Assembly (NCBI GenBank): GCA_964187785.1
Contig: OZ076409.1
Span: 56,980,001 to 57,044,000 of the forward strand
Reading direction: 5' to 3'
Origin: Amphiscolops sp. MND2022
Taxonomy: Eukaryota
Length of the DNA: 64,000 bases
Part shown: positions 1 through 56,074 of the stretch, one piece after another
Position numbering within the stretch: the first letter of the stretch is position 1
Layout: each line of letters opens with the position of its first letter
Translations under genes and position numbers: made by a program
The notes under the pieces: model-generated
What the model was told of the DNA's origin: nothing
Seen by the model: the letters and a program-made list of their open reading frames with translations, nothing else
Databases searched by the model: none

Positions 1-9
1 AGCGACCAA

Positions 10-1350
10 ATGCATAATAACATGAAAACAGCATCAGGAAGTACCGAATATCAAACTGCTATTTCGTCAATGCTTGGCGCAAAACGCTCAATGCTACCCC
101 ATAGTAACGACCAATTACGGCCATTGGCCTCTAGCACGCAAAGGAAGACAATCTCGAGAAGGAACCTGAACACTGGAACGGTGGAAGGAGCTGCCAAGGA
201 CAAGGACAATGCTCCGAACGCTATACACAGCCAAGCGTTGGCGGAAGCAATAACCACTGCGATGTCCAAGGGTCTGGAGCCATTATTAGCAGCTAAAGAA
301 TCTAAGAACAAACCTACCAAGTATCGTCGCACACGCGATGGAATAGTGGATGGTTGGCTAATGCTGTTGAGGCGTTACCTGGAAAAAGCCCATGCAAAAG
401 ACACTCCTTTAGACAGAGCATGGACCATTGTGGAGTTCCTAGAAAATGAAGCACAGGACTATATTAAGAATAAATCAGAAGCGGAACGCGATACTGATGA
501 AAAAGTCTTCGCGCTGCTAGCACGAAGATTTGGATCAGGATGTAATAAGATCCAAATACAACAACAGTTCCGTACACGTAATCAGTCCCCGGATGAAGAC
601 TACATGCAATACCTTGACGCATTGGAAGGTTTACGCAGCCAAGGTTTTCTTAACGAGGAAGTTGCGGTGAGGCGCTATGAAATTATGCAGAAGTTCATCG
701 AAGGGGTACGAAGCTATGAGTTGAAACGAAACCTTGCACTCATGTATGCACAGGAACAGTATGTAGACACACCCCAAACTGTGGAGGCCTTACGATTCAC
801 GGTACAACAATACCTGCGTATGCGTGATTCGACACGTTCGGAAAATTATCCTGCACCACAACAACAACAACAGCTGCCTGTCGCAGCGAACCCGCAAAAC
901 CAAGCACAGGCACAAGCCCCTCAAGCGCCCAACGCCCAGCAACTCCCACAGCAGCCTCCAGCTTTCCGACAACAACCGCAGCGAACATGTTTCAACTGTG
1001 GAGATCCTTCACACTTTGCAGCTGATTGTCCGTTGAAAGACCGAGCACGGAAACCAGTACAGCACATAGTCAATTCGTGTCGCACGAACACAGCTGGAGA
1101 ATGGGTGTGCCCATCGAACCCACGCGGCATGAATGATGACTTAATGCCCGCAACCCTACCAGAACAAGGAACATCAGCATTTTGTGTTAATTGTGGTCAT
1201 GTAGGCCACGTGGCATCTGATTGTATGACGCCTCACAATGTTGCAACGGAAGAACAAGTAAAAGCGGCGTGGTACGCCCCGGTCGCAAACTCAACAGACT
1301 TTTGCGATTCAGAGGATCAAATAAGGGTGATCTCGACTTCAGAAGACGGA
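10..1350 (+). pseudogene. gag: Gag (capsid-like region, Gln/Pro-rich linker, two CCHC zinc knuckles)
   Basis: CFNCGDPSHFAADC (~988-1029) and CVNCGHVGHVASDC (~1183-1224); capsid-like QQQFRTRNQSPDEDYMQYLDALEGL; true start may lie upstream of the window. Confidence 0.9.
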
Positions 1351-1789
1351 GGCCCATCACGTCCTGTGGTTGTAACTTGTGGTGAAAAACAAATCTTGAC
1401 GACACTTGAAGCACCAGCGCCTGACTGTACTGAAACACTAATATCCATCCATCTGTTGTTATCCGCGGAACAAAAGGCGCTTCCAAATCTCACATTAGCA
1501 CAATTGAAAGAAGAACTGTGCCGCAATACCAGTTTGACGATAGCTTCGCGACCACTACCCCACTTCACCAGGAATGATGAGACCAAGCTGGCCCAAATAA
1601 AGAGAGTGAAGACAATCGCGCCAGTCCCCGTAGCGATCACGGTTGATGGTGTGGACATGAGGTTTGATGCGGTTGTTGTCCTGGAAGGACACTTTCCGCA
1701 AGGCCTATATCTGGGCAGGCAAGAACTGCGTTGTTATAGCATTGGAGTGCAAGATGCACAAAGAGAGGCCCAGATTGATGAGCGAGCCT

Positions 1790-2130
1790 CGCTAGTAGTA
1801 GCATTCGGAACTCCTCTGCAAAAGCCGATACCACTTTTCGGCATGATTGAAACCGGTTCGGGAGTTTCCATCCTTTCATTGAGTGCGTACAAGAAGATTG
1901 CTTCCCAGCATACGCTGAGCCTATCACCATATGACGTTGAACTAACTCTTCGCTGCCAATGGCAAAAGTATCACCACCGTAGGTATAGCCGAAGATGTAA
2001 GCTTTCAGCTCGGCGGATACACTCTGAAGACCAACTTTGTAGTCATAGCCAATCATATTGGGTCAGAGGATTTCCTCCTGGGTCGCAATTTCTTGCGCAC
2101 ATACGACGTGTTGGTGGACCTGACAGCAAT
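1790..2130 (+). pseudogene. Retropepsin (aspartic protease), inactivated
   Basis: GMIETGSGVSIL (DTG>ETG at 1849-1857); 4-bp AACT duplication at ~1940-1947 shifts frame; continues AANGKSITTVG...DFLLGRNFL. Confidence 0.85.
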
Positions 2131-2680
2131 GAAAGTGACTATCCGCGATCCCAAAACACCTCGAATCTTTAAAGCCACTCATGAGGTAAGCGACCACGAA
2201 CCACCGTTTGTAGTTTCCACTGAAGACGTAATACTAGGTCCATTCGAAAGGAAGATTGTGCGCGCGAAAATCATCACGCAACAACCTGACATTTTCCTGT
2301 TTCGTAATGTAACGGTCCAGTCATGTAGCATAAAGTCCAGTTCTGTTTTTGTTTCAGAAGATACACTGATTTCTGTGGGAGAAGGAGGTATAGTATTTTT
2401 AGCCATCCGAAACCAAACTGATAAAGAACGGGTGAAAATCAAAGCACAAACTGTTATTGGCAAAGCGGCGCTTACCATTTTTGTATTGAACTCTGTTCTT
2501 ATGCAAACTGAAGGTGAAGCTTCGAAGCTTTCTGCCGAATATGTAAATCAAATACATAGAAACTTTGATTAGGACACCAGTTCAGAATTCAGTTCCTTTG
2601 CCCAAAACTTTTTATCTTCGACCGAACCGTCTGAGGCAGGTTTATCAGATAATGAAAAGCGCAAAAGGACAGATCCACAG

Positions 2681-4130
2681 TTGCTAAAAGCAATCCCAGG
2701 CCCTGATCTCTCTTCCGTCCTCTCTTCATGGGGGGAAGAGGCGAGAAACAAGTTAGAAACTATATTAAATGAGTATGAAGACCTATTCATGAAAAATAAG
2801 TCTGACATATGTAGGTGTAAGATTGCAAAGCACAAGATAGAGCTAGAGCCGGAGGCTATACCACACCGAGAAGGAGCTAGGCGAATGTCCCCTGATAAGG
2901 CGGCGAAAGCAAATCAGGAAGTGCAAAATTTGCTGGCCCTTGGTCTGATACAACCCTCCTACTCTCCGTGGGCCAGTGGCATAGTCATGGTGAAAAAGAA
3001 ATCAGGCGAGCTTCGCTTTTGCTGTGACTTCCGCCCGCTAAATGATGTAACAGTGAAGGACGCATTTCCACTACCCAGAATCGATGAAAGTCCCTCGAGG
3101 ATTGGGAATGCAAAGATCTTCACGAGCATCGAATTGGCGTGGGCCTTTTGGCAATTTCCACTGAAGAAGCGTGATCGCAGAAAAACGGCGTTCGCGTGTG
3201 AACTTGGCCTGTTTGAATGGCGGCGCATGCCCTTCCGGCTATGCAATGCATCGGCCACCTTTCAGCGATCGATCACGAGAGCTCTACAGAAGATCCAACA
3301 ACGACATGAAAGCGTTGTCATGGCATACATAGATGACATAGTGATTGCGACAGAAACCATTAAAGACGACTTGAAAAGAATCAAAGAAGTGTTCGAGTGT
3401 CTCAGAGAGGCAGGTTTCAATATGCGAGCAGAGAAATGTGACTTCATGCGAACTGAAACCAAGTACCTCGGAAGAGTATTCTCGGCCGAAGGCATTAAGC
3501 TTGACCCGGCTGCTGTTAGCAAAATCCTGGAATGGATGCCCCCCAGAAACAGAGAAGAATTACAGAGCTTCCTTGGATTTGCGAACTACTGCGAGATTTC
3601 ATTCCTTTTCATGCGGCTAAGGTGCAACCTATGCAGGAGTTGTGAAGGAAGAACCAACACTTCTACTGGAAAGAAAGACACCAAGAAGCGTTCGATGCAG
3701 TAAAGCAGGCATTGGTCGATGCCACAGCTTTGGCAGCGCCTAATGAAGAAAGACGTTTCGTTCTAGACACGGATGCCAGTGCAGTTGCTATAGCCGGCAT
3801 ACTACACCAAGAGCAACAATACAATGGGAAAACCATTCTTCGTCCTATTGTTTATAGCAGCAAGTCACTGACTAAAACACAAATGAATTATGGCGCCCCG
3901 AAGCTGGAAATGTATGCAGTATTCTATTTCATCGAGAAATTTCATTCCTACCTTGCAGGTCGGGAATTCACGCTGCGCGTGGACAACCAGGCTCTCTCGT
4001 GGCTGAAGACCTATTCAATGGATCAAGCCATGATTGGACCCTGGATTGCGCGCCTCGACCAATATCATTTCAAGACGATCCACAGACCGCGCACACAACA
4101 TAGAAATGTGGATGGTCTTAGCAAAAGGAC
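2681..4130 (+). pseudogene. pol: Reverse transcriptase and RNase H
   Basis: SPWASGIVMVKKK, RFCCDFRPLN, PLPRID, YIDD (3326-3337), FLGFANY; frameshift ~3590; RNase H LDTDAS, KLEMYAV, RVDNQAL; an in-frame TAG at 2570-2572 separates it from the upstream ORF. Confidence 0.95.
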
Positions 4131-4809
4131 CAATGACTACGTACATCGGGAGAAGATTGTGGAAACTCTACCAGAAGTGAGTAAGGGATTCAGCTTCATG
4201 CCTCAGAAAGACTACGAAGAACTCCCCACTGTGCCCTATATCGACAAACATGGAAAAGTTATTCCAAACCATCCAGAGCTTCAACCGGAAGCTCGAGCAC
4301 AACTTCCAGTGCTGTACATTTTGAAAGAGCCACCAAAAGAAGATCTAACCTCAGACCCGTCCTTGAGTTCCATACCATGGTACCCACAGGTGCAATGGGA
4401 AACAACTCCGACTACGAACGAAGACGACAGACCGAATTGTATCCTTAGCGTAACAACCAAAGTGCCGGCGGCACGTCTGGACACCACCCAACGTGACCCA
4501 GCACTGCATAGATTGCCTACGCAGTGTCAAGAACAAGCTGATGTCCCCAGGCCAGTCGGGACTGAGCTTCACGAGCATCAGTCAACAATGCACGGATTAA
4601 AAGATCTTCATCTAGCTCAAAACAGAGATGCACATCTGCTAGCGCTGAAGAAACTCATGAAGAACGAGCCATTAGAGGATACATTGTTCCCCGAAGACGT
4701 GCAGGACTTTGCCAAACGGTACTTTCACCAGAAGAAAGACTTACTGTTCCTGAATCAGAATGATATCTTGTGTATCAACTACATTCCGCAGCAACGCGCG
4801 ATGCACATA

Positions 4810-5880
4810 CGACCGTGTATGATCGTGATGCCCCAGCTATACCAACACGAAATCTTGTACAGAGCGCATGACGAGTCAGGACACCAAGGCGTTGGTAAAG
4901 TGTTGGCAAGAATCCAGGAGCGCCACACTTGGCCAGGCATCAAACGTGATGTTGTCAATCATATCAAGCACTGCTTAACATGCCAACAAACGAAACATCC
5001 CGCTGGGAATCCATGTTATCCGTTACAAAGTATCAACAGCAGCAATTTCGATGACCTGGTGCAGTTCGACCATTCGAAGTTATGCAAAACAACGTCAGGA
5101 AATAATGGATTGCTAGTCATCATCGACCATTTCTCTAATTTTGCAGAGGCAATCCCATGTGCACACGACGAATATGACGCCCAGACGACTGCAAAGATTA
5201 TCCTGAACAAATGGTTTGCAAGACACGGCACTCCTGCCAGGATGCAATCAGACAATGCCACCAACTTTACTGCTGAGATTGCTCAAGAACTGATGAAAGC
5301 TTCGCAAGTAACCAAAATAACGTCTACTCCAGCTCATCCGAGAGGCAATGGTTTAGTGGAACGTCAAAACCGAACATTACTGACCTTGCTCCGAGTCTAT
5401 ACGTCTCGAAGAATGCTTGACTGGGATGAACACATAGACGGAGTCTTGGGTGCCTATAATTCAACCAGACATGCAACGACCGGATTTTCCCCGTATATGC
5501 TCCAACATGGCGCAGAAAAATCCATTCCACTCTCGTTTATATACCCAGAATTCGCAGCGCGAGAGTTTGAGTCCAAAGAAGAATTTGTGGAGCACCTACT
5601 TGCTCGACAACAAGAAATCCACGAACTTGTTCGCCGAAACACACAACAGGCGGAAATACGACAAAAACAGAAGTTCGACAAGCATTTGAAAGCAAAAGCT
5701 CACGCGGTGGGTGATGCTGTTTGGGTTTTCTGCCACATAATTCCTAAAGGTGGCACCCGCAAACTCCTTCGTGCCTGGCGTGGACCTCACAAGATTACAG
5801 ATGTTTTACAAGATGGAAGATTATACGTTTTGGATACAGGACAAAAGGTTCACTTCGAACGCCTGAAGAAGCATGTGCCC
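4810..5880 (+). CDS. pol: Integrase (within ORF 3712-7104)
   Basis: HHCC (HDESGH...CLTC), DDE core (QFDH, SDNA, LVERQN) and GPY/F-like WRGPHKI. Confidence 0.95.
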
Positions 5881-7076
5881 GCGCCGTGGGATTGGGCGGC
5901 ACATCAACCCTTTGGGTTAGACCAGAATGTTGCCATCATCGCAGACCCATACGTGGAGGAAAGTAATGAGGAAATAACGTCAGACATATCACGTGACTCA
6001 TTTCTTCCAGAACAACTGCCACAGGCATCATTCGAGATGGAACCGACCGCGCCCGTTGCCCCGAGCACGATTCAAACGCGTACTCAGTCTGCTTTGGAAC
6101 GGGGAATCCCTCGAAGACGATTCAGCCATTTTGGATACCCTTCTGAGTCGGAATCCGACCAAGAACAAATGGGTCAACCCATCGAAGAGCCACAACAACC
6201 AATGATTCACCCTGATATCGATGATTTGGAACCACTGTATTCAGATCAAGAGGAAGTCAGGCCAGAACCTACACCAAGTCTGATACCCTCGCCATCAGGA
6301 ACATCAGCACCATTGTTCTCGAACCCAGCTTTAACCGACACATTGAGCAATTTTCCACTTATCAGTTCTCGAGCTGGTAGCTCGGCAGGACTACAAACTA
6401 TCGAGGAACCCGAACCCCAAGAAAGAACTGACAAAGAAATTCCAGAACCCGGACACAGCATGGAAACATCGCCATCATCGGGGAGAACCGCGAGTAGAAG
6501 AGGCATGCCAAGAGGCAGACCTCCAGATCGTAGAAGAGGAAGTGCCAACTCATCAAGCAGAGCACTTGCAAACACGCACCGACCGTACACCAGATCGGGA
6601 GGCAGATTGCGAACCAGAGCACAATCTCAAACCTTGGAACGTGCAATGACACTACCCAACATTGCAGAAAAATTATCATCAGAACAACCAGAAGCGGAAC
6701 AAACAACAACCTCACGAGCACCACCCTATTTGCTGCGACGCAATAGAACTCCTAGATATCGCTGCGGAACATGTGGTTCCCGTAACTTTAGTTGCGTCAA
6801 CCTAATTAATGGAAAACCACCGGACAAGCGATTGGCCCGGGGAGTAGACGCTCCTGCCCCAGACACAGCTGTTACTGAAACAACGGAAGACCACATACAA
6901 CATATCCGAAACATACAAGCAAAGGACCAAGAGGTTCCACAAGTACATCATGTTGTGATTACCGTGGAAAAGACCTATTCGAGCATTGGACCAGCCGTGG
7001 TCCCGCCCCTGGAAACCACACTAAAAGCCATGCAAGAAACATCTCGATCAGACTGCCCCAGCTACCGATTTAAGGA

Positions 7077-8198
7077 ATGGACATGCACAAAAAGAATGGA
7101 TTAGAATTCACGTTGACCGCAATCATACTCCCACTCCCACTATCGATGATGTTTGGAAGAATAGAACCAAGTGACACACGAATAGCAATGGTCCGCTGTA
7201 TCACCGCGCGAAGACTATGGCAGCAATATGGTGTAACCTCCCCTCCTGGAGATGTGTATCACCCAACGGCTGGTTGGTGGCTATTGGTCACCTCTTTGGA
7301 CGAAACATCACTAGTGACTCCAGGAACTTTACTGATTTGCTTGGAAAATTTGCGTACGCTTGTAGAGTTCGAGGATACCTTATGCTTCCATCTAGCAGAT
7401 ATTTATCGTGGGAAATTCCTCAGTCAACATTGGTTACAGCTACTAGCTATCACCTTTTGTCGCCAAGCCAAAATACGCCTGTTAGACAAACACACGTATA
7501 CATTCGAGAACCCAGTGACCGTGCTGGAAGCACTCTCCGTAGTTCACGATTGGTCTTGCACGAACTTGGGAGACAGACCTTTACGCAGAACAGTGTGGCA
7601 AGACCGTAAGGCCATTCTGGATCATTTCACACCAAGTCAAGACAATCAAAGCACAGTCACAGGAAAACTATTGACAACGCATCCGAAGATCAAACCGAAC
7701 TATCTATCATGGATTTATTACGAAGAAACTGACATTTTGCAAGCCAGAGGTACCGTAGTAATATGCTGTCCGGCAGATCTTCTGTCATATTCAGCAATGG
7801 CGCGCTACGTCATCAGGGAATATGGCCAGGAAGAAATTTTCCGACTACGCCCAGCCGTAGGAAAGGCTATTCACCTCACCAGATCACCCGCAACGCCGTG
7901 GAATAACGAAATGTTCCTGCTAATCACTAGAGCCTCTAGTAAACACCCCATTTTACATGATGTGCTACATCTGTGCCTGATAGATCTGGTGCAGAAGCTC
8001 ACACGAACATAAATCACCCGTATCCATCTTCCCATCTATGACCCTGAAAGATCAATCAACATGCTACCAGCTTGGTACTCAATGTTGAAAGATCATTTCA
8101 TTGATTCCAATACCGACATAGTCCTCCATGATAGGGTGTATGTATCAATTGCGTTAGTGAGGACACACCACAACCATGTAAAATCCAAATTTGATTGA
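7077..8198 (+). pseudogene. Tandem TARG1/OARD1(Poa1p)-like macrodomains, probably the original Pol C-terminus
   Basis: ORF 7077-8012 continues past one TAA (8010-8012) in frame to TGA 8196-8198; IYYEETDIL..VVICCPAD..GKAIHL..MFLLITR..ITRIHLP..FIDSNTDIVLH follows the TARG1 motif order; a more diverged repeat lies at ~7180-7490. Confidence 0.65.
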
Positions 8199-8418: not shown

Positions 8419-8523
8419 TTCAGTCCTGTCAATTCCCATGCACTTGACGCAGCCAGTCGTATATCATCATATTTGCAGTATATCCACCATAGTCATTTAT
8501 CAAAGGTGCTACCCATCTCTTTA

Positions 8524-11500
8524 ATGAATCAATCGGCTAGAACCCGCATGCCAGCTCCATCAACAACAAGCTCGCAACCGAGCACCAGCAGAATGGACCA
8601 ATCACAACCGCCGACGATTGCCACGCAAGAAACTCCCGTGTCCTCGCTGCCTGTCGAAGCATCTCAAACCAGAATTGACCAGCTTGGTCTGGTTCAATCG
8701 ACCCTACAAGAGGCCCCTTCTTCATCACTGGTGACCGGGATAGCCATACTAATCGCTCAAATGCAATCTCTCGAAATACATCCGGACCTTACCCTCTCCA
8801 TATCAATTGGAATTGGATCTTACCGCAGAACTGCGGAATTCCACAATGGCGAGTGGCAAGGTCACGATCTCACCCACCATTTTGATGACCACAGATCGCA
8901 CCTCAGATATGGCGAGCCTAATAGGCCTCCCATGGAGCAGCAACGACGTCTTCAAACGAACCTGACGCAAGCACCTGCAATATCGTCGATAACTGCCCCC
9001 GAGAGCGCCCGCGACTGTCAATCAACGCAACCACCGCCTACACAGCAATTCACATGCCTTTTGCCAACAATGCTTCCGCAGATATTGACGCTCCCACCAT
9101 CATCCGCCCCAATTAGTGTCAGGCGCCTGGAAGAGAACAACAAACTCATGCTCCCTTCTTCTTTCAGGGGGGAAGAGGTAGAAGGAGCGCACACGAGCGC
9201 GCAGAACGCTGAAGATGCCACCCAAAATACAAGCCAAAGACCGAGAACCATAATGATGCGGAACCCGCCCGACGTGCCCATCATGACAGATATGATCGAA
9301 TTTCAAGACTCTTACGATGCCTTGCTACCTTCAACGTCGCAGGACCCACATAACCTAATAGGTTTTCAGGCCGACCCAGAACGCCAAGAACAACAAAAAA
9401 AGCAAGAACTAGCAGAAAGGCAAGCAGCCAAGGCCCCTATCGATCTCCGCGACGTATTGAATCGAAAGGAACAAAGCAAGATCGAACAGCTAGTCCAAAA
9501 GAAAAGGGCCAGAGACTTAGCCAATTCGGATGCAACGAACTCCAGCCCGAATCCTTCCCCAGTGCAACAGCCGGAGCCTAGGCGAGTGCGATTCTCTAAT
9601 GAGCTCCTATCGCAGACAGAGGCACGACAGCTTGACATTGCTGCCAGAGACGCGGTGCGTCTGCAGCGAGAAGCGAAATCAGAGAATCCAGACTCAGAAT
9701 TGGATGTGCAGAAATTCGAAACAGCTACCAGTAAAGGAAACCCAGAGGATGTGGAGTACCTCGAAAAAGCAACGATCGGAATGCATTACTTGAGGCCCGT
9801 AAAGAAGCCAACACTCCTTCTGGACCGCATTCCTCCCTGGTTCGAGAGAGTAAGGGAGAATCTTCATAAAGACAAGTCATCATTGGTGAGACCACTCCCC
9901 TCCAAAGTAAAATTGGCCGTACAACGACCGGCAAGATACGATGACCAACTGATGAGAAGCCGTGATTTCATGAAGGACGTAACAACCTTGCTCCCCATGG
10001 GCAAAGAGATGTTGCAAAAGACAAGGATTGCCTTGTTCATGGACTCAACGATGAAAGCAACGGCGAACATGAACAACACCCTGATGGATGTTCGCGTGAT
10101 GAACTTGCCCTGCACATCGCTAGAGGAAATGGCCGAGGTGACCTGCAAGGTCTTCGGTCCCACCATCAACCACCAATCCCACCAACAATTCCATTCCCTC
10201 CGATCCTGATATATAGCAATATGATTGACCACTTGGCTCTTCGAGGAACGCTGAAGTACTTTGAAGGAGGCAACCGTAGACTGACGGAAGAATTGATGAC
10301 AGGAGAGGTAGTTGCGTACGTCGAAGCAATGAGGAATGTGATCAGGCGGGTGCAGCGAAAGAAGCCCGTCGTAGGGGTAGTCTTTGTGTCGCCCCCGGGA
10401 TACGTATACTTGCCTAAACCACTCCAGCAATTGTTGTGTCTAGTATCAGAAGCATCCTACTCACAGAATTTGTCATTCTACATAATAGCACCGAACCTGA
10501 GAGTGAGTGCCACAACCTGGCGTCCGGGTGAGAACTCTTATTCTGCATTTTTGGCGGAAATCTCGAAAGCCTTGCAGGCTTGTACCGGATACGAGGGCAA
10601 TTCTAAGTTGTTGGCCGATGATGCTACTGCCTTTGACTTTGGCATGCAAATGGCGCACCGCTCCTTTGATGAGAATGGGGTACGCCGAGTCAAGGAGCCT
10701 AATGAAAAGGAACGGGCAAACATGATTGACAACGGATGGTTTGAAAAGAGAGATGAGTCAACGCTAGATGAGAGGACGCACAACGCTAAATTCCACAAAG
10801 AACTGCTAGCTCTCTTCAAGAAGACAGAAGGAATAAAACAAACTCGGACCGACGCGACCGTTTTTCCAGTGGCGATACAAGCGATCGACGCAAAGTCCAA
10901 CATGGTTTCCCCCACCCTGGTATTGTTAACAGTTTTAGCTCAGAAGACACCGCAAGAAAACCGAATGAACCCAGAGCATTCTTACCAATCTTGGTATGAG
11001 ACGCTGCAGGTGACCTTGAATGAAACAGCAGAAAGCCATGGAGTTCCCTTCCCCATATTCTTGTATAATATCTCGCTATTTTGGGTACCAACGATGGTGC
11101 AGCGTGAAAGCAGCTTAGATGAGCAGCAAGTTAGACTGTATGTTGAAGCAATGCAGAGGGCCACAATTGCTGAGATCCTGGCCTACCTGATGGCCGTTGG
11201 TCTAGGCGCCGTCTACAAGGGCCCAGTACACCTGGTGCAGAGGTTGGTCCTAGCTAAAGCCAACTCCTGTCTACTCAGTTTTCTCATATTCACCAAGAAC
11301 CAGCGGAATTGGATTAACGCCTTTCTAAACACTTTGGACCCTGCAGGCGCTTTGAAATTGCGCGCCCAGCTCGCCGAGAATATCCAAACACTATTGGCTT
11401 GGGTTTACTCAGCCTGGGTCAATGTCTCTGGTGTGATGAGCACTTTAGACGACGCGCTGAGTCAAAAACCCAATAGCAATAACCTGCCAGGTTTCCTATT

Positions 11501-12677
11501 CCCGTCGCAGATAGCCAGCCTCATGTTGGTAGAAACTGAAGACCTAGTCCCCATGATCGCACCCATAGTCTGGCCTATATTCGGTTCAATGATGGCCCTG
11601 AGATACCCTACACAGTCGCTTAGAGTTGCCGCAAAAGCACCTACATTATCTATTCTGCATTTCGTGGACCCTGAAGACGACGCCAGACAACCGAATTTTC
11701 AAATGCTAGTGGGCAACTTTGCCAACTTCCGACCACCAATGGCATAAACGATTATTAAAGACGAGAAACAGGTCGAGTACAATTTCAGTGCCCTGATCCG
11801 AGCCAGAGCGCGGTGCGCTGTTCCTATGTCGCTAGAACTTCATCCAGTAGAATGGTTGCACGCTCCTATAGAACCCAGCACTGGAGCATTGCAAGGCTTT
11901 GCCAGCTGGGATGAGCCAGGTATTCTCCAAGTACTAACCAATGCGGAACGACGTCTGGGTGGACGAAGAAAAGGCTCCACACCAGAAAGACTCCAGCATC
12001 GAATAATACAAGATATATCCCGAATGTACAACCCTCGAGTGACACCGCAAGCCGATACAGCCAAAATCCTGTCTGACACTACGCATTGGGCAGACCCGAC
12101 GATAGTGGACAGAATGATCTACCAAGGATTTCAAATTCTGAAGGCGACAATTCCGAAGATCGCAAGAGAACCCCATAGAAAGACCTTGCCCCTGAATGAA
12201 GAGAAGCCGAACAATCCAAAAATGGCCATGGAAATCTTCATGAGTCTGATAACCAAGCAGAGGGACGTAAGAAATACCGTATTTGACAGTTATTCAAATG
12301 CAATAGGGACTTTCAAGGAAATATTTTTCCGATATGGACGCCAAGACCTCGCAGACCAGCTGCCAGAACTAAGCCCAGCTGGCTCGACCTCAATGAGACA
12401 AGCAGCAGGGCACGAGGAGGTTTCTACTGCTGAAAATACATCAACTTCCGTGGTGTCAACCTCAAGTCGAATCAGCATTGCAATAGCTGCAGCACCAACC
12501 AACACCGATGTATCCATCCATGACCCTGAAACAGCTAACCCAACCACAGTCAACACCACCAATGTTACTTCCAATGATCAGACAGTGCCGCTAGAAGCTT
12601 TGGAAGTTACGCCCACGTCGTTGACGAGAACACTAGCAGCCGATATCGAATTAGAATTGAACGAACTACCTAGTTGA
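8524..12677 (+). pseudogene. ORF3 of element 1: ~1400-codon protein of unknown function with an SGNH-hydrolase-like segment
   Basis: ORFs 8473-10209, 10221-11747 and 11826-12677 join via one frameshift (~10170) and one in-frame TAA (11745-11747); may have extended to TGA 12773-12775 via another frameshift. Confidence 0.75.
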
Positions 12678-13244: not shown

Positions 13245-13875
13245 TGTAACGTCCACCAGTCAGCACCAAATTTTCGATGAAAAATTCGATCAAGGACCAG
13301 AAAGTGTGCGAATCAAAATGGCCGACCTGGCAGGTCGTTGGAATCAAAAAGGAAGCAAAAAAAGAAGAGAAGAGACCCCCCACCCCGACCATAAAAAGAA
13401 GAAAAGACACTGACACGATGTGGAAGAATAAGAAAAATGCTCGGATTAGTGTCATCTCCCCAGAAAAGTGCGTTTTTAATACAAAAACGTTCTGAGATCC
13501 AGATATCCCACAGCGAAGAAGATGAAGAGAATCGCGAATTCAATAGAAACATGCCAGGAGTGCCAATCTTGATTAATTCTGATGTCATTAGTATTGATTT
13601 ACGGATTTATGATGATGTCAGATCTGCCAGAACCTTGTAATGGAGCATTTAGACGTTATTTTCTGAAATAGAATGCATTTCAGCTAGAACCCTGTTCTCG
13701 GACCTCGGGAGTGTGTAGGACCGCAGGAAGTCTTTAGGAACGTTTTTACATGCTTGTGGGACGTGTCCGGACTTTGAGTGTGCCGGCACGTCGCCACGGA
13801 GCTCTAATAAGAGGAGTCTCCACGGTGTTTTGGAATCCACAGTTCTGGTATGTGCGTTACTTGCTTGACGTTACA
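13245..13875 (+). repeat. 3' LTR of element 1 (631 bp)
   Basis: TG...CA ends with perfect 9-bp terminal inverted repeat TGTAACGTC/GACGTTACA, preceded by a PPT; shares sequence blocks with 55359-56074. Confidence 0.9.
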
Positions 13876-15633: not shown

Positions 15634-16542
15634 CTACTTTGCTATTTGCTTAGTTGTTAAATTCCTTTCCCTAAAATTTATAAAGAAGTAAATCAATTGC
15701 TTTACCCTAAACGGACGATAGGTTCTTATAGGTATCATACTATAAACCATATTAACTCTCAGTAATGCACAATCCAATACCGGTAATTACGTCATAGTCA
15801 AGACGAACAGTCTCGCTGAAAACGAGTAAAATGAAAAAATATGAGTACGTATTTAGCTATGGGGATCTGCTCAATTGGACGATCGCTCAGTTAGTCGACT
15901 GTGCAATTGATCGATTTTGCATGTATTCCTTTTTCAGTTCGCTCATAACTTGTAATGATTACATAATCGGAGTATGTCAGCGAAGCTGAAACAACCAATA
16001 ACATTTTAGAAGCAGCTCATAGTCTTCCAATTGACCAATCGGTTAGTTGAGCGGTCGTCTAATTGAGCTAGAACCTTAGCTATGACAGCGGAGCACAAGC
16101 GACCGAGTTATGACGTCATTTTCAGCGAGACTGTTCGTCTTGACTATGACGTAATTACCGATATTGGAATGTGCATTGCTGAGAATTATTATGCTTTGTA
16201 GTATGGTACTTATAAGACCCTATCGTCCATTTAGAGTAAAGCAATTGGTTTACTTTTTTAAATAAACTTTAGGGAAAAAAAATTTAACAACTAAGCAAAT
16301 AGAAAAGTGGGTCTAGCTCAATTAGACGACCGCTCAACTAACCGATTGATCAATTGGAAGACTATGAGCTGCTTCTAAAATATTACTAGTTGATTCAACT
16401 TCGCTGACATACTCCAATTATGTACCCATTAGATGTTATGAGCGAACTGAAAAAGGAATACACGCAAAACCGATCAATTGCACAGTCGTCTAACTGAGCG
16501 ATCGTCCAATTGAACAGTTCCCCATAGCTAAATACGTACTCA
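15634..16542. repeat. Interleaved inverted repeats A-B-A'-B'
   Basis: 15634-15822 is the reverse complement of 16119-16310; 15842-16072 is the reverse complement of 16312-16542. Confidence 0.9.
15861..16075. mobile_element. MITE with ~50-bp imperfect TIRs and 8-bp TSD (hAT-like)
   Basis: TTAGCTAT at 15853-15860 and 16076-16083; GCTCAATTGGACGATCGCTCA vs TGAGCGGTCGTCTAATTGAGC inverted ends. Confidence 0.6.
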
Positions 16543-36642: not shown

Positions 36643-37055
36643 TATTTACAAATTGACATATCGTTTTTTCTAGACGTGGCACTGGGCGGTTGAACTTTTC
36701 GTGAGAGATTTCCTCGTATTAGCAAATCCAGAAACTTCGTTGTCAGAAATTGCATCATATTGAGCGTTCAGGAAAAGTAACTAATTCAGTTATTCACCTA
36801 TTTATTCAATAAACTGAGATTTTAAGAACAAGCTCCTTTTTGACACCTTTTCTAGGGCAAGAAATTATCAACTCATTGATATATCAGTATAATAACTCAG
36901 TATAATAACTGAATTAGTAACTTTTCCTGAACGCCCAATATGACGCAATTTCTAACAACGAAGTTTCTGGATTTGCTAATACGAGGAAATCTCTCACGAA
37001 AAGTTCAACCGCCCAGTGCCACGTCTAGAAAAAACGATATGTCAATTTGTAAATA
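36643..37055. repeat. Near-perfect foldback (152-bp arms, ~109-bp loop)
   Basis: 36643-36794 is the reverse complement of 36904-37055 with about 4 mismatches. Confidence 0.95.
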
Positions 37056-41743: not shown

Positions 41744-43920
41744 TTGCTATTTTTCTCTAAAAATATTTGAATTGCCAGAAAAAAGATAATATTGGTAAAT
41801 AATTTAACCGAAAAGTTTCTCCTATGTGACTTGTGAGTTGGGCGAAAGAATACTTTTCAATTTTCGGCAGTGTTTTCACGCAGGGTGAGTAAATAGTTGG
41901 TATGGATCGTGAGGGGATAAGAGAGAGTTGAGAATTCTTTTCGAAGGTGTAAAAGGGTAACGCAATTAAACTGAGGGACTGTCTAAATAATCAAAAAGTT
42001 GAGGCGAATTCCCACACGCACATCCATGTAAATAAAAAGGCGGGGAATTTCCCAATGTCCACAATGTGATAGGTGATTGATTTGGCTCACACCGAGGCGG
42101 TTTTCCCAGATGTCGAACTGCTGAGAAATGGGATTTAAAAGCAGCACAACACTCCTGAAATTATCCAACCATTTTTGATTTACCTTTCCAAGCTCCAAAG
42201 AAAACTAATAATAGTTTATGTAAATGTGAAAATTTGGGAAGAGGCAACCGATCAATGTATTTTTAGCCAATCAAATTTCAGATATTTTGTCGTCAAGAGA
42301 ACTCTTGTGAACAGTTTTTAAATTAATTGTTGTCTGGTTCTTTTTAGTTCTACTTGATCACGCGAAAAAAATATCAAGTGAAGAAATTTTTTCCAGTCAT
42401 GGTATATTGAAGTTCATGTTCATTCCTTCCTCTAATGGTGAATTTGAAGCCGAAAACTAGATCTTTTTTGTTTCACAAATTTCATTAGATTAATTTCTAC
42501 TCAGCGGTACTTTGGAAACTGTGGTCCTGTTCGCAATAAACTGGATTCGTGAACAGGCTTTTGAAAGACAACTGACCGAAGCCAGGAAAATTCAATTACC
42601 AATTTAATAGTTTCCCCCTTTTTTCATTGGAAAATTTCAAGTTAATAATGTCAATTGGTCTTTTCTCCGGCCGAATTCTGCTTAAGTGGTCTTCATCAGA
42701 TGAACTGGAAATTGCCAATAAAAAAAGCATCCTTGAATGATGCTTATACGTGGAAGGATAAATTCAACAGATATTTGGCCGAGCATTGAAGTTATAAAAA
42801 ATTCCAACTTGTTTTTACTCTAAAGACAATCATCACTTGTTCCAAAAAGACCATTTCTATATTAAAAAAATCTTTACGCTTTCAAAAAAAGACTTTTTTG
42901 GACAAGATTTTTAGTTGTCTCAAATAAAGTTCGTTCAATACTTGATCCTAAGAACTTTCTTCGAGATAATTTCTAAAATTTAGATTTCTAAGAACGTATT
43001 CGACAAAATGAAAAATGAGTTTCGAATTTATTGCAAAAAAGCCCCTTGTGCTGACACTGAACTCTTCAGAAATCTATGCAATTACCATTTTCGAGCCGTT
43101 ATTCCTGTTAAGCACCAAGATCGAAGGTTCAAATTTCCTCATCAAAGGTTTTTCAACCAGTTGAGAAAAAGGTATTTTGATAAATGGCAGTAAACACATT
43201 TTGGCATTCAGTTACAACGTTATGTCAGTTATTTCAGTTATCGTTTTTTAAAACCTTTTTTTTGCGTTTTTCAGATTATTGTTGCTACCATGAAACAATA
43301 GCCTTTTTCGGGCCTGTAAGAATGCATATGAATGCATTAATCATTACCCCAGTTGGGCGTCATTATCCTTCCAAAAAGCTTCTTTAGCCGTTTTGAGAGC
43401 TATTAGGACTGAATTTCCAAACAAAGAACTGAAAAAATCAATAAATCAATTGGCAAGATCTCATCAGTTTCATCTTCATTTGCCTAAATGCTGTTAAGGC
43501 TGAATCGAGGAATTTGAAGCTGCAAAAGGCGTTCGAAAAACTAAAAAGCTATTTTTTGTGTTACTTTTGAAACAGAATGATTCTTTCTTTCTAATTCCTT
43601 TCATTCGTAAAACTTCACCACTGCGAAGTATGTGAATGAAAAGTATCAATTATCAGAAAAATTTAGCAATATAAACAAACCGGAGACGACACATGCCACC
43701 ACCCCGCTGGAGGTTGAAAAGAAAGAGCCAGAAAGTATACAAGAGTATCTTACTTGCGTAGAGTATTGAAGTTCAGTGTTAAAAACTAAACCAACTGGGA
43801 ACTGCCCAAGTCGGCGCAAAGAGTCACACTAACAAGCCGGGAATGGCCCAAGTCGGCGCCATATTAAAGGCTCAACAAACTGTGAAATTTGGAGAAAAAT
43901 CCATAATGCTAAACGAGAAA

Positions 43921-44121
43921 TGAAAACGTCAAATCCGAACTTTGAAAACGTTATATCCTAACTTTGAAAACGTTATATCCGAACTTTGAAAACGTTATAT
44001 CCGAACTTTGAGAACGTTACATCCAAACTTTGAAAACGTTTTATCCAAACTTTGAAAACGTTATATCCGAACTTAAACTTTGAAAACGTTGCACCCGAAC
44101 TTTGAAACGTTACATCCTAAC
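43921..44121. repeat. 22-bp minisatellite (CCGAACTTTGAAAACGTTATAT), ~9 copies, inside the HINE
   Basis: Head-to-tail copies with no spacers. Confidence 0.95.
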
Positions 44122-44513
44122 TAGAAGATCTCGGCGGAAAAGTTGAACAAACGAACAAAAAAGTGGATCATTCAGAGTGAACTGAAAACTACCCATTGTA
44201 ATTGTTGTAGCTAACGGCTTTGATAAAATAGCGTGAGAATAAACAACTGTATTTCAACTTTCTCAGACCACACTGGTAGTCTATCGTGTTTTGTCTGAAC
44301 ACTGTGTTCAGCTTAGGCAGGTTCTTAGTCAACTGTGACTAACTGCTCTTTTTCAATCGCGGTTACTACCACATTCCCCCGACAGCAATTGACGGTTGGG
44401 AATGGAAATTAATCATAACATCGAAACACAGAATGTACAGGTTAGGTATGGATAAGTAATAATTATGGAAAACACTACAACAGTTAAAAGTTTCAAAAGA
44501 GTTTGTGACGGTT

Positions 44514-45403
44514 TCACTTTTGGGTAGTTTTCTTTTCATCTCCACATATGTAAACCGGTATGCCGTAACGGTCTGGGGCTCGTCTATTTCTACTATTTCT
44601 AGCGGGTGACGATTTCGGTGCTTGGTCTGTTTCGGCGCTATTTTCTTCTTGTTCCAGGTCTGCAAATACCTGTGGCATTTCTTCGTCTTTTCTTGTCTCT
44701 ATGGCTCTCATTGTGTATTGCTTTGTTTTCTTTAGGCGTTTTTGCTTTCCCTCTGCTTTTGGTGCTCGCGCGTTTTCTCTCTTGGATAGGATCACTTCTG
44801 CTTTTCCTGCTGGTGCAAATTGTACTGTGTGATCAGTCTCTTTAGTCACTCTTCCCATCCTTTTCTTGAAAAGTCCAGCCAATTTTCGCTTTCTTTGGCG
44901 CTCTCTGCCGAAGATCATGCTGTCATCGTCACGGGGAAAATCTTTCAATCGCTCCAGTTCCACTGATTTGTCGTAGTCTAATTCATTCAATTCTTTATAC
45001 AGTTTAACTATTATTGACGTTACTGTATTCAGTTTTCGACCAATATGCCTCTCGAACGGCGACTTCCCATCTTTCCCTTTACTTGTCCTAGCGCTCTTAC
45101 TAATTGGTAGAACAATTTGTTCTGTTTTTCGGCTTATATTTAGGGACTTGTTCTTAGTCTTTCGTTCACCGTTCTTATAAGTCTCTCGACTTTACCATTT
45201 CCTCTACGGTCATGGACCGGGCATACTATGTGACGAATTCCAAATTCTTCTCTAAGGTTTTTAAGTTCATTCCCCATAAAGACGGTTGCTTGATCAGTTC
45301 TTACTATTTGTGGAACCCCGTTGTTGCTTATGTATTTTCGCAAAAACTTTTCGACCCCTTTTATGTCAGAACTTTTTACAAATTGTAAAGTAGGGTATGT
45401 CAA
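44514..45403 (-). pseudogene. pol: Integrase core (N-terminal part deleted) and C-terminal tail of element 2
   Basis: IVRTDQATVF...GNGKVERLIRTV; HHCC domain and first catalytic Asp not found. Confidence 0.85.
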
Positions 45404-45463
45404 TTAGGATGATTAGACGATTTTCGTAGTAAACAAGCTCTCTGTCTACTCTCAGGTCTTTAA

Positions 45464-47285
45464 TTACATGTCCAAATAATTTATTTTCTTTACGAAGTAT
45501 ATTGATATCGCGCCGTAAAACATCTTCCCGGACATTTTTAACCCTCGACCCGCTTGATAATTTGCCATAAGTAGTCCGTCAGTAATTTCTTCGAATGTTT
45601 TAACTTTTACAAATGTAATTTTGGGGTTTATTTGGGCTGATGTAGATGCCTCTTCGACTGATGTCACAATAGACTGAAGTGGTGAAGTTTTTAATTCTGA
45701 AGGCTTTTCGGTTTTCCTTGATTGAACAATTTCTTTGGGTCTTTGAGATTTTGATGAACGAATTAAATTACGTGTAGCGTTTCTTTCGCGACTAATTTGT
45801 AGGCGACTCATTTTGATTTGTTTGCTTTCACACTTAAGACGGTCAGTTGTTTCGCTCATCTCTTTCTCGCTTTCTGCGTCCTGCGCTCTCATTGGCTGCT
45901 TGAACAATTTGTTCGATCTCTGATTAGCGCGTTGCTGCCTTTTATAATTCTTGTTAACATTTTCTACTGAATTGACTACGAACCAACTTTCCCAAAGTTT
46001 TTTTGAACTTTTCGACCACTCATTTTCATTATAATCACTCGGGTGTCTAGATAAATAGTCGGCTAATCCCATTGTTCGTCCGGGTTGATGAATTACTTCC
46101 ATATCAAAGGGTGAAAGTCTGTCTATCCATCTAGTAAGACTACTCGAATAGGTTTGGTTTCCGTGATTACTTTTCAGTGCTGTTTCGAGCGCTTTATGGT
46201 CGGAAATAACTTCGAATTTTACTCCTAATACGTAATCACGAAAATGCTCTACCGCCCAAACTATGGCGAGTAATTCTAGTTCATTCGTGGAGTATCTGGG
46301 TTCGTAATCTGACAAATATCTTGATGTGCATGATAGTAACTCCCATTCATTTTTCTCATTTTTCTGCATGAAAAATGATCCTAGGCCGTCGTGACTAGCG
46401 TCACATATTATGCGCCAATTTGTTCAGTCTGTTGAAATGTGATAATTGGATAATTTCTTGTACGCTTTTTTGTACTTGGTTAAACGCTTGGGTATGTTTT
46501 TCCTTCCAATCCCAGTTTCCTTCTTTTTGAAGTAGGTCTCTAAATGGTTCGGTGATTTTGGCTAATCCGGGTAAAATGTTAGTTAGCTGATTCACTGCCC
46601 CCAAGTATGATCTTAGTTCTTTCAAAATTTTGGGTTTCATTTTCTCTGGAATTCCTTGTACTTTTTCATTGAGTGGTTTTATCCCCTTTTCTGAAACTCT
46701 AAATCCGAGCCAGTCTTTTTCATTCTTTGCTATGTTACATTTTTCTTCTTTAAGTTGTAGCATTCTACTATCTAACTTTCTAATAACCTCCCTAACCTTT
46801 TCTTCGTGTTCTTCCTTGGTTCCCTTTGTTACTATTAAAATGTCATCTATAAAAATGAAAACATTCGGAATATTAATTAAAATATCTTCCATTATTCGTT
46901 GGAATTCTGTGGGTATTACTGTTAGTCCATAGAATCCCGTTTTAAAACGATATATGCCGCTAGCTTTTACCCCGATTATCGCAAAATTACAGTGTTTGGT
47001 TAATTCTGGGTTTAGGAAGACCTGTCCAAACGCGTATTTGAGGTCTACTGAAGTGAACCATACTTTTTCTCCCTTTTGCGTTGTGATTGTTTCTGCCAGG
47101 GTATTTAACAAATCATCTAAATTCGGCATTTGGTAATTATCCTTCTTTATGTTTTCATTCATTTCTCTGGCATCTAGCGCTATTTTTACCGTTTTATCTC
47201 GCTTTACTCTGATAACAGTGGGCTGTATAAAAACATCGTCTTTCATTTCGTTTATTCTTTCAATATGTCTCAATTTTATTTTCAA
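45464..47285 (-). pseudogene. pol: RT and RNase H of element 2 (frameshifted)
   Basis: KIALDAR, MPNLD, VDLKYAFGQ, FIDD; CDAS region, ELELLAIVWAVEHF, SDHKAL, LADYLSR. Confidence 0.92.
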
Positions 47286-48774
47286 TATGTCCCATTTTTA
47301 TTAACTTTTCTAGTTCTTTTTCGACGGAATTTTGGACTTTGAATATTCGACGTCCCTTTTGTTGTTTTGGCACACAATTTTCTTTAATTTGTGCGTTTAT
47401 TTCATGCCCTTCTATGCTGCCGTGTCTTGAAAACAATTCCTTAAACTCTATGAACAATTTGTTTGTCGACTTAGTTACGCAATTGAATTCACACTTACCA
47501 CCTTCCGTCTTTAGCTTCACTCCCAAGCCTCTCAGCCAGTCTTGGCCTATCACAGTGCGCGCTCCGTTTTCTGCTATCAAGGCCCCAACTTTATCCAGCT
47601 TTTTCCATCCTGCTTCGACCTGTCCGATGAACGCTCGAAGAAATTCAATTTTGTTACTACTGTAATCAATGTATTTCTCATTCTCGCCCAGTGGTTGCAA
47701 TTTATATTTCTTCACAAACATCTTTTCTACGTGAGCTTTGGTAAAGATGGTGATAGGCGATCCGGTGTCGATGAGTGCGTGGAAGGGTTTTTTGTTGACT
47801 CTTCCTTTTAGTACGAAGGGTTTGTTTGAGGAACTTTTTTCTTCGTCGATGTGGAGCACTTCCACTTCTTCTTCTCCTGATTCGTCTTCCGAACTACTCC
47901 ATTCGGTTTTTTGTTGGACGACATTAACTTTCTTTTGATACGGTGTCTTTTGTTTTGTTTCTGGTTGTTTTATGCGGCACATTCGTCCGTAGTGTCCCAT
48001 TTTTCCGCAAAGTCTACACTGGACGTTTTTCGCCCTGCAGATCTTTTGATGTCCAGCGACGAATGGCTTCTCTCCGCACTTGTAGCATTCGTTTGTTTTC
48101 TCCACTGCGAACACTGGTTCTTCTCTTATGGTTGTTGGCTTTATACAAATTGTTTTCTTCTGCTGTGCGCCTTGTTCGAAAGCTACTGCAGATTTTAGAG
48201 CTTCCTCCGGATTATCCATTGGCTCTGTGAAAAGCCTTTCCTGTACCACTGTGTTTTTCATGTTCGATACACAAATATCGTACACTAACCCGGTGGTTTG
48301 CGTTCCAAAGTCGCAATTTGCAGCTAATCCGTTCAAGGCGTGCCAAAAATGCTCCAAGTTTTCGTCTTCTTTTTGTTTTCTGTTAAGAAATTTGTGTCTG
48401 TCCATCAGCCTGTTTCTCTTTTTCTGGAATGCGTCATGGCATTCTTTCAACAGATCTTCTAGCTTTGTTGCTTTTATATCCATGTTTGGTTTTCGGTCTA
48501 ATAGCGTTTTTCTGGCAGCCTCCCCAAGTGCGATATATAAGAAACTTACTGCTTTTTTCTCGGCAATTGATTCTTCAACTCCTCCCATCAGTTCCTTTTT
48601 TCTTGGGTTCGTTGTCGTATCTCTTGTTAGTTCTTCTAGCGATATGGAGGATTTTGCCATGAATGTCGCCTCAAACAGCTCTATCCATCGACTCCATTCG
48701 TATTGTTTTTCTGTGGCTGCATCTTGCCAGAATACGGGTATGCCCGATGTCGGTTGGTTATCTCGCAGCGCCAT
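47260..48774 (-). pseudogene. gag: Gag-protease of element 2
   Basis: ATG 48774 (MALRDNQ...); knuckles CYKCG..H..C and CRLCGKMGHYGRMC; protease LIDTGS...IGQDWL. Confidence 0.92.
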
Positions 48775-55358: not shown

Positions 55359-56074
55359 TGTAACGTCTGCCACCGGCATGACCAAAATTTCGATGAAAAA
55401 TTCCAAATGTGCGATGTCAAAATAGAAGAAAAAAGATGGCCGACCTGACAGGTACAAAAAGTGTGAAAGAAAAAAGAAAACACGCGGAGAGCGAGCAAGA
55501 AAGAGAACACGTGCCGGAGAGACAGCAGAAAAAGATGAAAGAGCAAGAAGATCGAGGAATGTCAGAATGGCGATTATCGGGAAGTTGTGTCATCTCTTAC
55601 GAAATTCAACAATTTCAGATGAAGATTGCCAGAGGGATATTCCGAATTATGGCTTGAAACTGTAAAGTAATTGGGGTTTGTCCCCGTTTTTCCTTGTTAT
55701 CTTCATAATTCCCTTCGATATTTGGAAGATGTTTGACCTTCTAGGTCATTTTATATCTTATTTCCCAAATATTATGTTTTCCAGCTAAATCACTGTTTTG
55801 ACCTCGGAAGCATGTAGGAACTCGCAGGAGTACATTAGAAACCTTAGGAATGTTTTTACAGGCTTGTGGGGCGTGTCCGGACTTTGAGAGTGCCGGCGCG
55901 TCGCTTCGGAGCTCTAACTAGAGAAGCCTCCTTAGACGTTAGAAAAGTCCCCCTTGGAGACCATTTTGGGATCAAAAACTAGTGTCTAGGTATGTAGTAA
56001 GACAACAGTCTCCTGTTTAAGCATCCTAGGCATTGTCCCTCTTCCTAGATGTGCGTCGCTAGCCGGTCGTTACA
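55359..56074 (+). mobile_element. Solo LTR related to the element 1 LTR (716 bp)
   Basis: TGTAACG...CGTTACA termini; flanks CCCCT/CCTCT (5-bp TSD, 1 mismatch); shared blocks with 13245-13875. Confidence 0.88.

What the first reader, a model, noticed from the sequence alone, without database searches (positions are those of the whole stretch)
7077..8198. Gypsy retrotransposon carrying tandem TARG1/DarG-type macrodomains after integrase
Seen: reading through one TAA gives a ~140-aa unit (7710-8132) that follows the TARG1/OARD1 macrodomain motif order (I.Y...D.., V.C...D, G....L, .LIT[KR], I.LP, F...DI.L). A second, more diverged unit precedes it (MVRCIT..GDVY..WLLVTS..TLLICLENL..IRLL). The ORF overlaps the end of Pol, so the ancestral state is probably a Pol fusion. 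Known: TARG1/DarG-family macrodomains remove ADP-ribose from proteins or DNA, and viral macrodomains counter PARP-based defence. Inference: the element may encode an anti-ADP-ribosylation or chromatin-targeting module. The Gly-rich loops (GAGIA, GCGLD) are lost and the catalytic Lys is Arg, which suggests a binding or decoy role rather than catalysis.
Basis: partly seen in the sequence, partly recalled or inferred. Interest (0 to 1): 0.85.

Follow-up and report, generated by a model that had tools for sequence, protein, structure and literature searches.

The report
Retrotransposon carrying twin disarmed ADP-ribose domains
A family of gypsy jumping genes ends its main protein with two domains predicted to have the fold of the ADP-ribose-removing enzyme TARG1; the key pocket residues are replaced, so the pair likely works as a docking module rather than an enzyme, while a related element also carries a copy with the enzyme motifs intact.

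Summary
Confirmed, and extended. Both units fold like TARG1/DarG-class macrodomains: unit 2 (7701-8135) Foldseek E 1.6e-9, Z 17.6; unit 1 (7134-7490), folded alone from a sister copy, E 1.7e-4, Z 8.8. The Pol fusion is real: 60 long relatives carry integrase and the module in one frame, and 56 of 60 end with unit 2. The window's own copy is broken. The module persists in subfamilies only 38-48% identical in unit 2. New: a related gypsy Pol (P0363) has a motif-intact TARG1 domain right after integrase (E 6e-25) plus one degenerate copy, like coronavirus Mac1 plus SUD. Best reading: a captured TARG1-type hydrolase repurposed as a non-catalytic docking module on the integrase tail; partner unknown. 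Macrodomains in retroelements have precedent (fish endogenous retroviruses). No dN/dS and no binding data could be obtained.

The parts
1..3703 (+). 5' part of the gypsy gag-pol (gag with zinc knuckles, protease, reverse transcriptase), broken by frameshifts near 1945 and between 3541 and 3589; the element's 5' end lies outside the window
   Evidence: ORFs; Pfam zf-CCHC, gag-asp_proteas, RVT_1; match to a full-length sister in four frames
3646..7104 (+). Pol frame with RNase H, integrase zinc finger (4831-4998), integrase core (about 5101-5340) and a long low-complexity tail
6763..6795 (+). basic Cys motif (C-x2-C-x4-C-x-C in relatives; 3 of 4 Cys in this copy), possibly metal-binding
   Evidence: sequence; motif in 60 of 60 long relatives; pI 9.5-10.3 in six relatives
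6946..7133 (+). small conserved beta-alpha-beta-beta segment ahead of unit 1; the window's copy is frameshifted near 7086 inside it
   Evidence: alignment; secondary structure; no match listed for it; break
7134..7490 (+). unit 1: shortened TARG1-class macrodomain fold, no Lys/Arg at the catalytic site
   Evidence: register; residue counts
7491..7700 (+). linker with two predicted helices between the units
7701..8135 (+). unit 2: full TARG1-class macrodomain fold with Arg285 (=Lys84, 7929-7931), Asp322 (=Gly121), Glu324 (=Gly123, 8046-8048), Ser326 (=Asp125); interrupted by TAA at 8010-8012 in this copy
8419..12677 (+). three further long frames, probably extra ORFs of the same element, function not found
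   Evidence: no significant family; weak GDSL-esterase lead (score 0.82)

Best explanation
This is the C-terminal end of a gypsy Gag-Pol polyprotein: two domains predicted to have the TARG1 macrodomain fold, with their catalytic and pocket residues replaced, which likely act as a non-enzymatic docking module on the integrase tail. Shown: in-frame fusion in sister copies, the fold prediction, the residue exchanges, retention across distant subfamilies. Inferred: an ancestor captured a TARG1-type ADP-ribose hydrolase; copies lost the pocket and were kept for a new binding job; carried on a flexible tail behind integrase (where chromoviruses carry a chromodomain), the pair would tether the integration complex or particle to a host protein or nucleic acid without reading ADP-ribose. 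The partner is unknown; a protein is favoured over plain RNA because the units are not basic. The window's copy itself is dead.
For: Fusion: 60 proteins of 1128-3114 aa hold the module, all 60 with an integrase zinc finger, 55 with reverse transcriptase; 56 of 60 run to the end of unit 2. Fold. Pocket: among 52 representatives (under 85% identity, from 173 rows covering unit 2) Arg at Lys84 in 49, Asp at Gly121 in 48, Glu at Gly123 in 44; Asp at 125 in 0 of 49; a two-residue gap and no Gly run in the GAGIA loop. TARG1 G123E loses ADP-ribose binding and activity, stays folded and still binds RNA (PMC5928194 passages); Lys84 is required for activity (PMC8501950 passages). Constraint: against the most distant subfamilies unit 1 and unit 2 keep 43-48% and 38-46% identity, the disordered linker 29-38%, integrase 67-69%; among 51 close copies unit 1 differs by about 2%, near RNase H. 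Analogy: coronavirus SUD is a tandem of macrodomains that fail to bind ADP-ribose and bind G-quadruplexes (PMC2674928 abstract). Position: gypsy elements with a C-terminal chromodomain target chromatin (bioRxiv 10.1101/2021.11.30.470311 passages).
Against: No binding partner or activity was tested. The adenine-binding Asp is kept (45 of 52) and the Arg at the catalytic site is nearly invariant, which could mean a nucleotide is still bound. The 8 representatives of the second clade keep Gly at 123, so the Glu argument covers only the window's clade. One representative (P0149) has Lys at 84. SCO6735 lacks both catalytic residues and is still a hydrolase (PMC7050489 passage). The loop mapping rests on ungapped sequence alignments at 16% identity, not on inspected coordinates. 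The margin of unit 2 over the linker is modest, and between close subfamilies unit 2 varies about as much as linker regions (48% vs 42% for P0312/P0313). Whether the module stays attached to integrase after protease cleavage is unknown.
Confidence: 0.48

Rival explanations
1. ADP-ribose reader or decoy: unit 2 still binds ADP-ribose or PAR, with Arg replacing Lys to hold rather than cut it, steering the element to ADP-ribosylated chromatin or soaking up a host mark.
For: Adenine-site Asp kept in 45 of 52 and 7 of 8; Arg at Lys84 in 49 of 52 and 8 of 8; Gly123 kept in 8 of 8 of the second clade. ADP-ribosylation takes part in L1 silencing through SIRT6 and KAP1 (PMC4695847 passages).
Against: Asp at Gly121 in both clades and Glu at Gly123 in the window's clade put acid side chains in the phosphate loop; G43E, I44E and G123E each abolish binding in TARG1; the GAGIA loop is shortened; unit 1 lacks the site altogether.
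Confidence: 0.22
2. A rewired enzyme: the new conserved polar set in unit 2 (Asp234, Arg285, Asp322, Arg325, the His-Asp-Arg end) forms a different active site acting on ADP-ribose derivatives or nucleic-acid ends.
For: Asp234 42, Arg285 49, Asp322 48, Arg325 45 of 52. Catalytic residues vary widely in this class: DarG keeps only the Lys, SCO6735 neither.
Against: Salt bridges that close a dead pocket would be conserved equally well; no open diphosphate loop is left; no known family member has this pattern in the hits.
Confidence: 0.13
3. A structural or RNA-packaging part of the particle: the pair binds the element's own RNA or its extra ORF products (8419-12677), not a host target.
For: TARG1 binds RNA outside its pocket; a basic Cys motif precedes the units; the element has large unexplained extra frames.
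Against: Units 1 and 2 have pI 5.1-7.9 in six relatives; the other two gypsy remnants in the window show no such module, so it is not a general need.
Confidence: 0.12
4. A decaying passenger: a captured gene drifting neutrally at the end of Pol.
For: All catalytic motifs lost; unit 2 varies as much as linker regions among close copies; dN/dS could not be measured.
Against: Open frame to the same end in 56 of 60 long proteins, fixed motifs across subfamilies near 40% identity, a confident fold, unit 1 nearly as invariant as RNase H among 51 close copies.
Confidence: 0.05

Closest known systems
TARG1/OARD1/C6orf130 (PDB 4J5S, 2LGR) and the DarG macrodomain (5M3I); ALC1-like class
   Same: Predicted fold, top match for both units; detectable sequence homology through divergent relatives; adenine-site Asp kept in unit 2.
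   Different: 16% identity; Lys84 is Arg, Asp125 absent, both Gly loops replaced; tandem; fused to a retrotransposon Pol; unit 1 about 25 residues shorter.
Coronavirus nsp3 SARS-unique domain (SUD-N/SUD-M, Mac2/Mac3) beside the active Mac1
   Same: Tandem derived macrodomains in a mobile element's polyprotein with the ADP-ribose site lost; P0363 mirrors the active-plus-derived layout.
   Different: Other macrodomain class (SUD scores Z 7.7-8.0 against 17.6 for TARG1); SUD binds G-quadruplexes through lysines, these units are not basic; analogy, not membership.
Macro-domain ORFs of fish epsilon-like endogenous retroviruses (Basta et al. 2009, as cited in PMC4977317)
   Same: A reverse-transcribing LTR element that has captured a macrodomain.
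   Different: Retroviridae, described there as additional ORFs; here a gypsy Pol fusion, doubled and pocket-dead. The original paper was not held, so its macrodomain class was not checked.
Chromoviruses (gypsy elements with a chromodomain after integrase)
   Same: An accessory host-derived domain at the C-terminal end of Pol.
   Different: No chromodomain here; the domain sits about 400 residues behind the integrase end; targeting not shown.

Membership tests
Ty3/gypsy LTR retrotransposon | gag, protease, RT, RNase H, integrase in that order | tested here: met
   Ty3 Gag-Pol is the best integrase match of P0363
Ty3/gypsy LTR retrotransposon | paired LTRs, PBS and PPT | tested here: inconclusive
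   5' end is outside the window; 13734-13821 has an 88% copy at 55844-55931 that may be LTR sequence
Macrodomain superfamily, ALC1-like/TARG1 class (unit 2) | minimal macro fold closest to TARG1/DarG | tested here: met
   predicted model: E 1.6e-9, Z 17.6; sequence E 8e-4 to 2.7e-7 via relatives
Macrodomain superfamily, ALC1-like/TARG1 class (unit 1) | minimal macro fold closest to TARG1/DarG | tested here: met
   predicted model of sister P0079: E 1.7e-4, Z 8.8, 118 aligned; weaker than unit 2, no significant sequence support
Active TARG1/DarG hydrolase | catalytic Lys (TARG1 K84, DarG K80) | tested here: not met
   Arg in 49 of 52 and 8 of 8, Lys in 1 of 60; Ser/Ala in unit 1
Active TARG1/DarG hydrolase | acidic residue 125 of the TARG1 dyad | tested here: not met
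   Ser, Pro or Gly; Asp in 0 of 49. DarG also lacks it
Active TARG1/DarG hydrolase | Gly-rich loops GAGIA and GCGLD forming the diphosphate pocket | tested here: not met
Active TARG1/DarG hydrolase | adenine-site Asp (GDL motif) | tested here: met
   Asp219 in 45 of 52 and 7 of 8, unit 2 only
Active TARG1/DarG hydrolase | ADP-ribose binding and hydrolysis | not testable with these tools
   needs bench assay
Active TARG1-type hydrolase (P0363 residues 391-534, related lineage) | GDLF, HCIS-D, MGAGIA, TK, G-GLD motifs | tested here: met
   E 6e-25 to TARG1 with all motifs aligned; DarG model E 1.3e-11, below its cut-off; activity untested
Chromovirus | chromodomain after integrase | tested here: not met
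   no chromo hit

The most novel reading that the evidence does not exclude
A gypsy lineage built a coronavirus-like macrodomain cassette on its integrase tail: an active TARG1 eraser that counters host ADP-ribosylation of the element (kept in the P0363 lineage) and derived pocket-dead copies that gained a new host partner and became the part worth keeping, so that the window's family holds only the doubled pseudo-enzyme. That would make ADP-ribosylation a front in the host-retrotransposon conflict of animals and define a new kind of integration tether.
Probability: 0.3. Interest if true: 0.82.

Novelty: new variant of a known kind. Interest (0 to 1): 0.62.

Why it matters
Host-derived domains on Pol tails tell what a retrotransposon must cope with. 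An intact-looking TARG1 eraser behind integrase gives a direct test of whether hosts use ADP-ribosylation against LTR elements. The doubled pocket-dead form, invisible to Pfam, is a natural version of the laboratory G123E mutant kept across a large family, and repeats in a retrotransposon the path from active macrodomain to derived binding pair known from coronavirus nsp3. Its partner could be a new targeting factor or a non-catalytic function of TARG1-class folds.

Tried and rejected
Pfam scans of the window's frame and of 58 and 24 relatives gave no significant macrodomain hit (best Macro E 0.3); the beta/gamma-crystallin hit (E 0.05-0.15) and a glycoside hydrolase hit (E 0.035) were rejected as chance after the fold searches. 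No whole genome is held. No sequencing run was listed, which is no evidence on expression. Locus searches: none in viral contigs for P0363; one 1056-base metagenome contig with 62 codons of unit 2 (L001), too little for dN/dS. Positive selection on unit 2: 11 fixed differences between two groups of copies all lay in unit 2, but the groups were defined on unit 2; the control showed splits as deep in gag N-terminal and linker windows, and 13 of 22 site states shared with a third subfamily point to recombination, so the idea was dropped. Sequence proof that unit 1 and unit 2 are duplicates: profile-profile probability 6%, E 0.006, reversed control E 0.013, inconclusive; one search was uninformative because both alignments held unit 2. 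The tree (33 rows picked by hand) separates unit 1 from unit 2 but the intact domain is a long branch, so the order of events is not settled. The all-representatives search listed only 150 of 345 hits, and those looked like fragments of this family; the weaker 195 were not shown. No fold match was listed for the small segment ahead of unit 1. No complex prediction was run. PMC12440569 and PMC9040795 hold no macrodomain passage.

Full report
Observation. The window opens inside a gypsy gag-pol: zinc knuckles, protease, RT, RNase H and integrase follow in order. Against one full-length relative the window's copy matches in four frames, with breaks near 1945, between 3541 and 3589, and near 7086, so it is a dead copy. 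The host was not identified; a eukaryote, probably an animal, is my inference.

Pol fusion. A search among proteins of 205-653 aa gave 116 relatives, all from ENA; 55 of them also match the window's Pol tail and run on into the module in one frame. A search among longer proteins gave 60 of 1128-3114 aa, all with an integrase zinc finger, 59 with the integrase core and 55 with RT. In 56 of 60 the protein runs to the end of unit 2 and stops within a few residues. The layout is gag-PR-RT-RH-IN, a disordered linker of about 280 residues, a basic four-Cys motif (60 of 60), a small structured segment, unit 1, two helices, unit 2.

Fold. Pfam sees no macrodomain. An AlphaFold2 model built on 58 of the relatives has two confident domains (mean pLDDT 70.7, pTM 0.48, so their relative position is not fixed). 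Foldseek's first eight hits are human TARG1 (best E 1.6e-9, TM 0.83 over the target); the independent aligner gives TARG1 Z 17.6 and DarG Z 16.2 over residues 209-354. To test unit 1 without unit 2 I folded sister protein P0079, which ends before unit 2 (55 sequences): again the first eight hits are TARG1 (E 1.7e-4), Z 8.8 over 118 residues, followed by other ALC1-like and Poa1p macrodomains. This is weaker and near the tool's background, but both searches pick the same family. Sequence homology to TARG1 is significant through divergent relatives (E 8e-4, 5.8e-5, 2.7e-7). Unit 1 and unit 2 align in the expected register but not significantly.

Pocket. TARG1 numbering was read from the PDB chain (offset 6); it shows Asp at 125, where PMC7050489 writes Glu125. 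The alignments from the Pro before loop 2 to the last helix are ungapped. Of 366 stored proteins, 173 rows cover 80% of unit 2; thinned to under 85% identity they give 52 representatives of the window's clade and 8 of a second clade (many are degraded copies). Lys84 is Arg in 49 of 52 and 8 of 8, Lys in one. Gly121 is Asp in 48 of 52 and 7 of 8. Gly123 is Glu in 44 of 52 but Gly in 8 of 8. Residue 125 was never Asp in 49 representatives. The adenine-site Asp is kept (45 of 52, 7 of 8). In human TARG1, G123E abolishes ADP-ribose binding and activity, stabilises the fold and leaves RNA binding intact (PMC5928194, passages); K84A is inactive (PMC8501950, passages). So the window's unit 2 most likely neither cuts nor binds ADP-ribose. 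The caveats: the mapping is by sequence at 16% identity, the second clade keeps Gly123, and SCO6735 is active without either catalytic residue (PMC7050489, passages).

Constraint. Against the most distant subfamilies RT keeps 81-82%, integrase 67-69%, unit 1 43-48%, unit 2 38-46% and the linker 29-38%. Among 51 close copies unit 1 differs by about 2%. Unit 2 is more variable, about as much as linker windows; a control argued for recombination rather than positive selection. No sister DNA could be had, so dN/dS is not measured.

A related lineage with an intact copy. The unit-2 profile reached a second clade on short contigs from NCBI and ENA. One cluster member, P0363, is a gypsy Pol fragment: integrase (41-55% identical to the window's family), then a domain matching TARG1 at E 6e-25 with GDLF, HCISAD, MGAGIA, TK and GAGLD all in place, a long linker, and one degenerate copy homologous to unit 2 (E 1e-21 to 6e-19). 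A unit-1 profile found no unit 1 in six proteins of this clade, and the intact domain has no match in the window and no intact counterpart among the other stored proteins. Whether the intact copy is the parent of the degenerate ones or a second capture is open: it is a long branch in the tree. It rests on one protein.

Mechanism. Most likely a captured TARG1-type hydrolase gave rise to pocket-dead copies kept for binding. Their place on the integrase tail is where chromoviruses carry a targeting chromodomain (bioRxiv 10.1101/2021.11.30.470311, passages), and the closest functional parallel is the coronavirus SUD, two macrodomains that do not bind ADP-ribose but bind G-quadruplexes beside an active macrodomain (PMC2674928, abstract). 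The units are neutral to acidic (pI 5.1-7.9), which favours a protein partner; the basic Cys motif could supply nucleic-acid contact. All of this last step is inference.

Known and new. Macrodomains in reverse-transcribing elements have precedent: fish epsilon-like endogenous retroviruses (PMC4977317, passage citing Basta et al. 2009; the original was not held). From recall, not from a call, database annotations of OARD1-like domains in gypsy-like polyproteins exist, so the intact form may be familiar to repeat curators. Ten full-text searches (listings seen, some cut to the first 15-40 papers) showed no paper describing a TARG1-type domain in gypsy Pol or a tandem pocket-dead form; the library lacks most subscription journals and Repbase, and supplements were not read. 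PMC4245714 (passages) notes TARG1-like domains in many viral genomes, few with all catalytic residues; PMC7729036 (passages) and PMC4695847 (passages) gave background only.

Verdict. A real, conserved, Pol-fused tandem of TARG1-class folds; it works least like an ADP-ribose eraser and most like a docking module, and it is not a member of the active TARG1/DarG hydrolases. New variant of a known kind; interest 0.62.

Noticed in passing
P0363 residues 391-534 (stored protein): A related gypsy Pol fragment carries a TARG1-like macrodomain with all binding and catalytic motifs intact directly after integrase, then a long linker and one degenerate copy homologous to unit 2. Only this one stored protein of 366 shows the intact copy.
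   Followed up: partly
window 8419-12677 (+): Three long frames after Pol with no significant family hit; part of 9966-11747 has a weak GDSL/SGNH esterase lead (atlas score 0.82).
   Followed up: partly
window 6763-6795 and 6946-7133 (+): A basic four-Cys motif (60 of 60 long relatives) and a small conserved beta-alpha-beta-beta segment precede unit 1; no fold assigned.
   Followed up: partly
long relatives P0258-P0310: Unit 2 occurs as two versions about 11% apart among 51 copies that are 98-99% alike in RT and integrase; probably recombination between subfamilies.
   Followed up: partly
window 13734-13821 and 55844-55931: 88% identical 88-nt pair, possibly the element's 3' LTR and a solo LTR remnant.
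   Followed up: no
window 44514-48909 (-) and about 61000-63376 (-): Two other degraded gypsy-like elements, with no match to the macrodomain module; 44203-44373 and 48774-48944 are a 95% direct repeat around the first.
   Followed up: no
window 18741, 21426, 24672, 43831, 57215: A dispersed repeat family of 56 nt or more in both orientations, and a 22-nt tandem array at 43899-44096.
   Followed up: no
window 15636-16542 and 36643-37055: Long nested inverted repeats (234 nt at 93%, 152 nt at 97%), like MITE or foldback elements.
   Followed up: no
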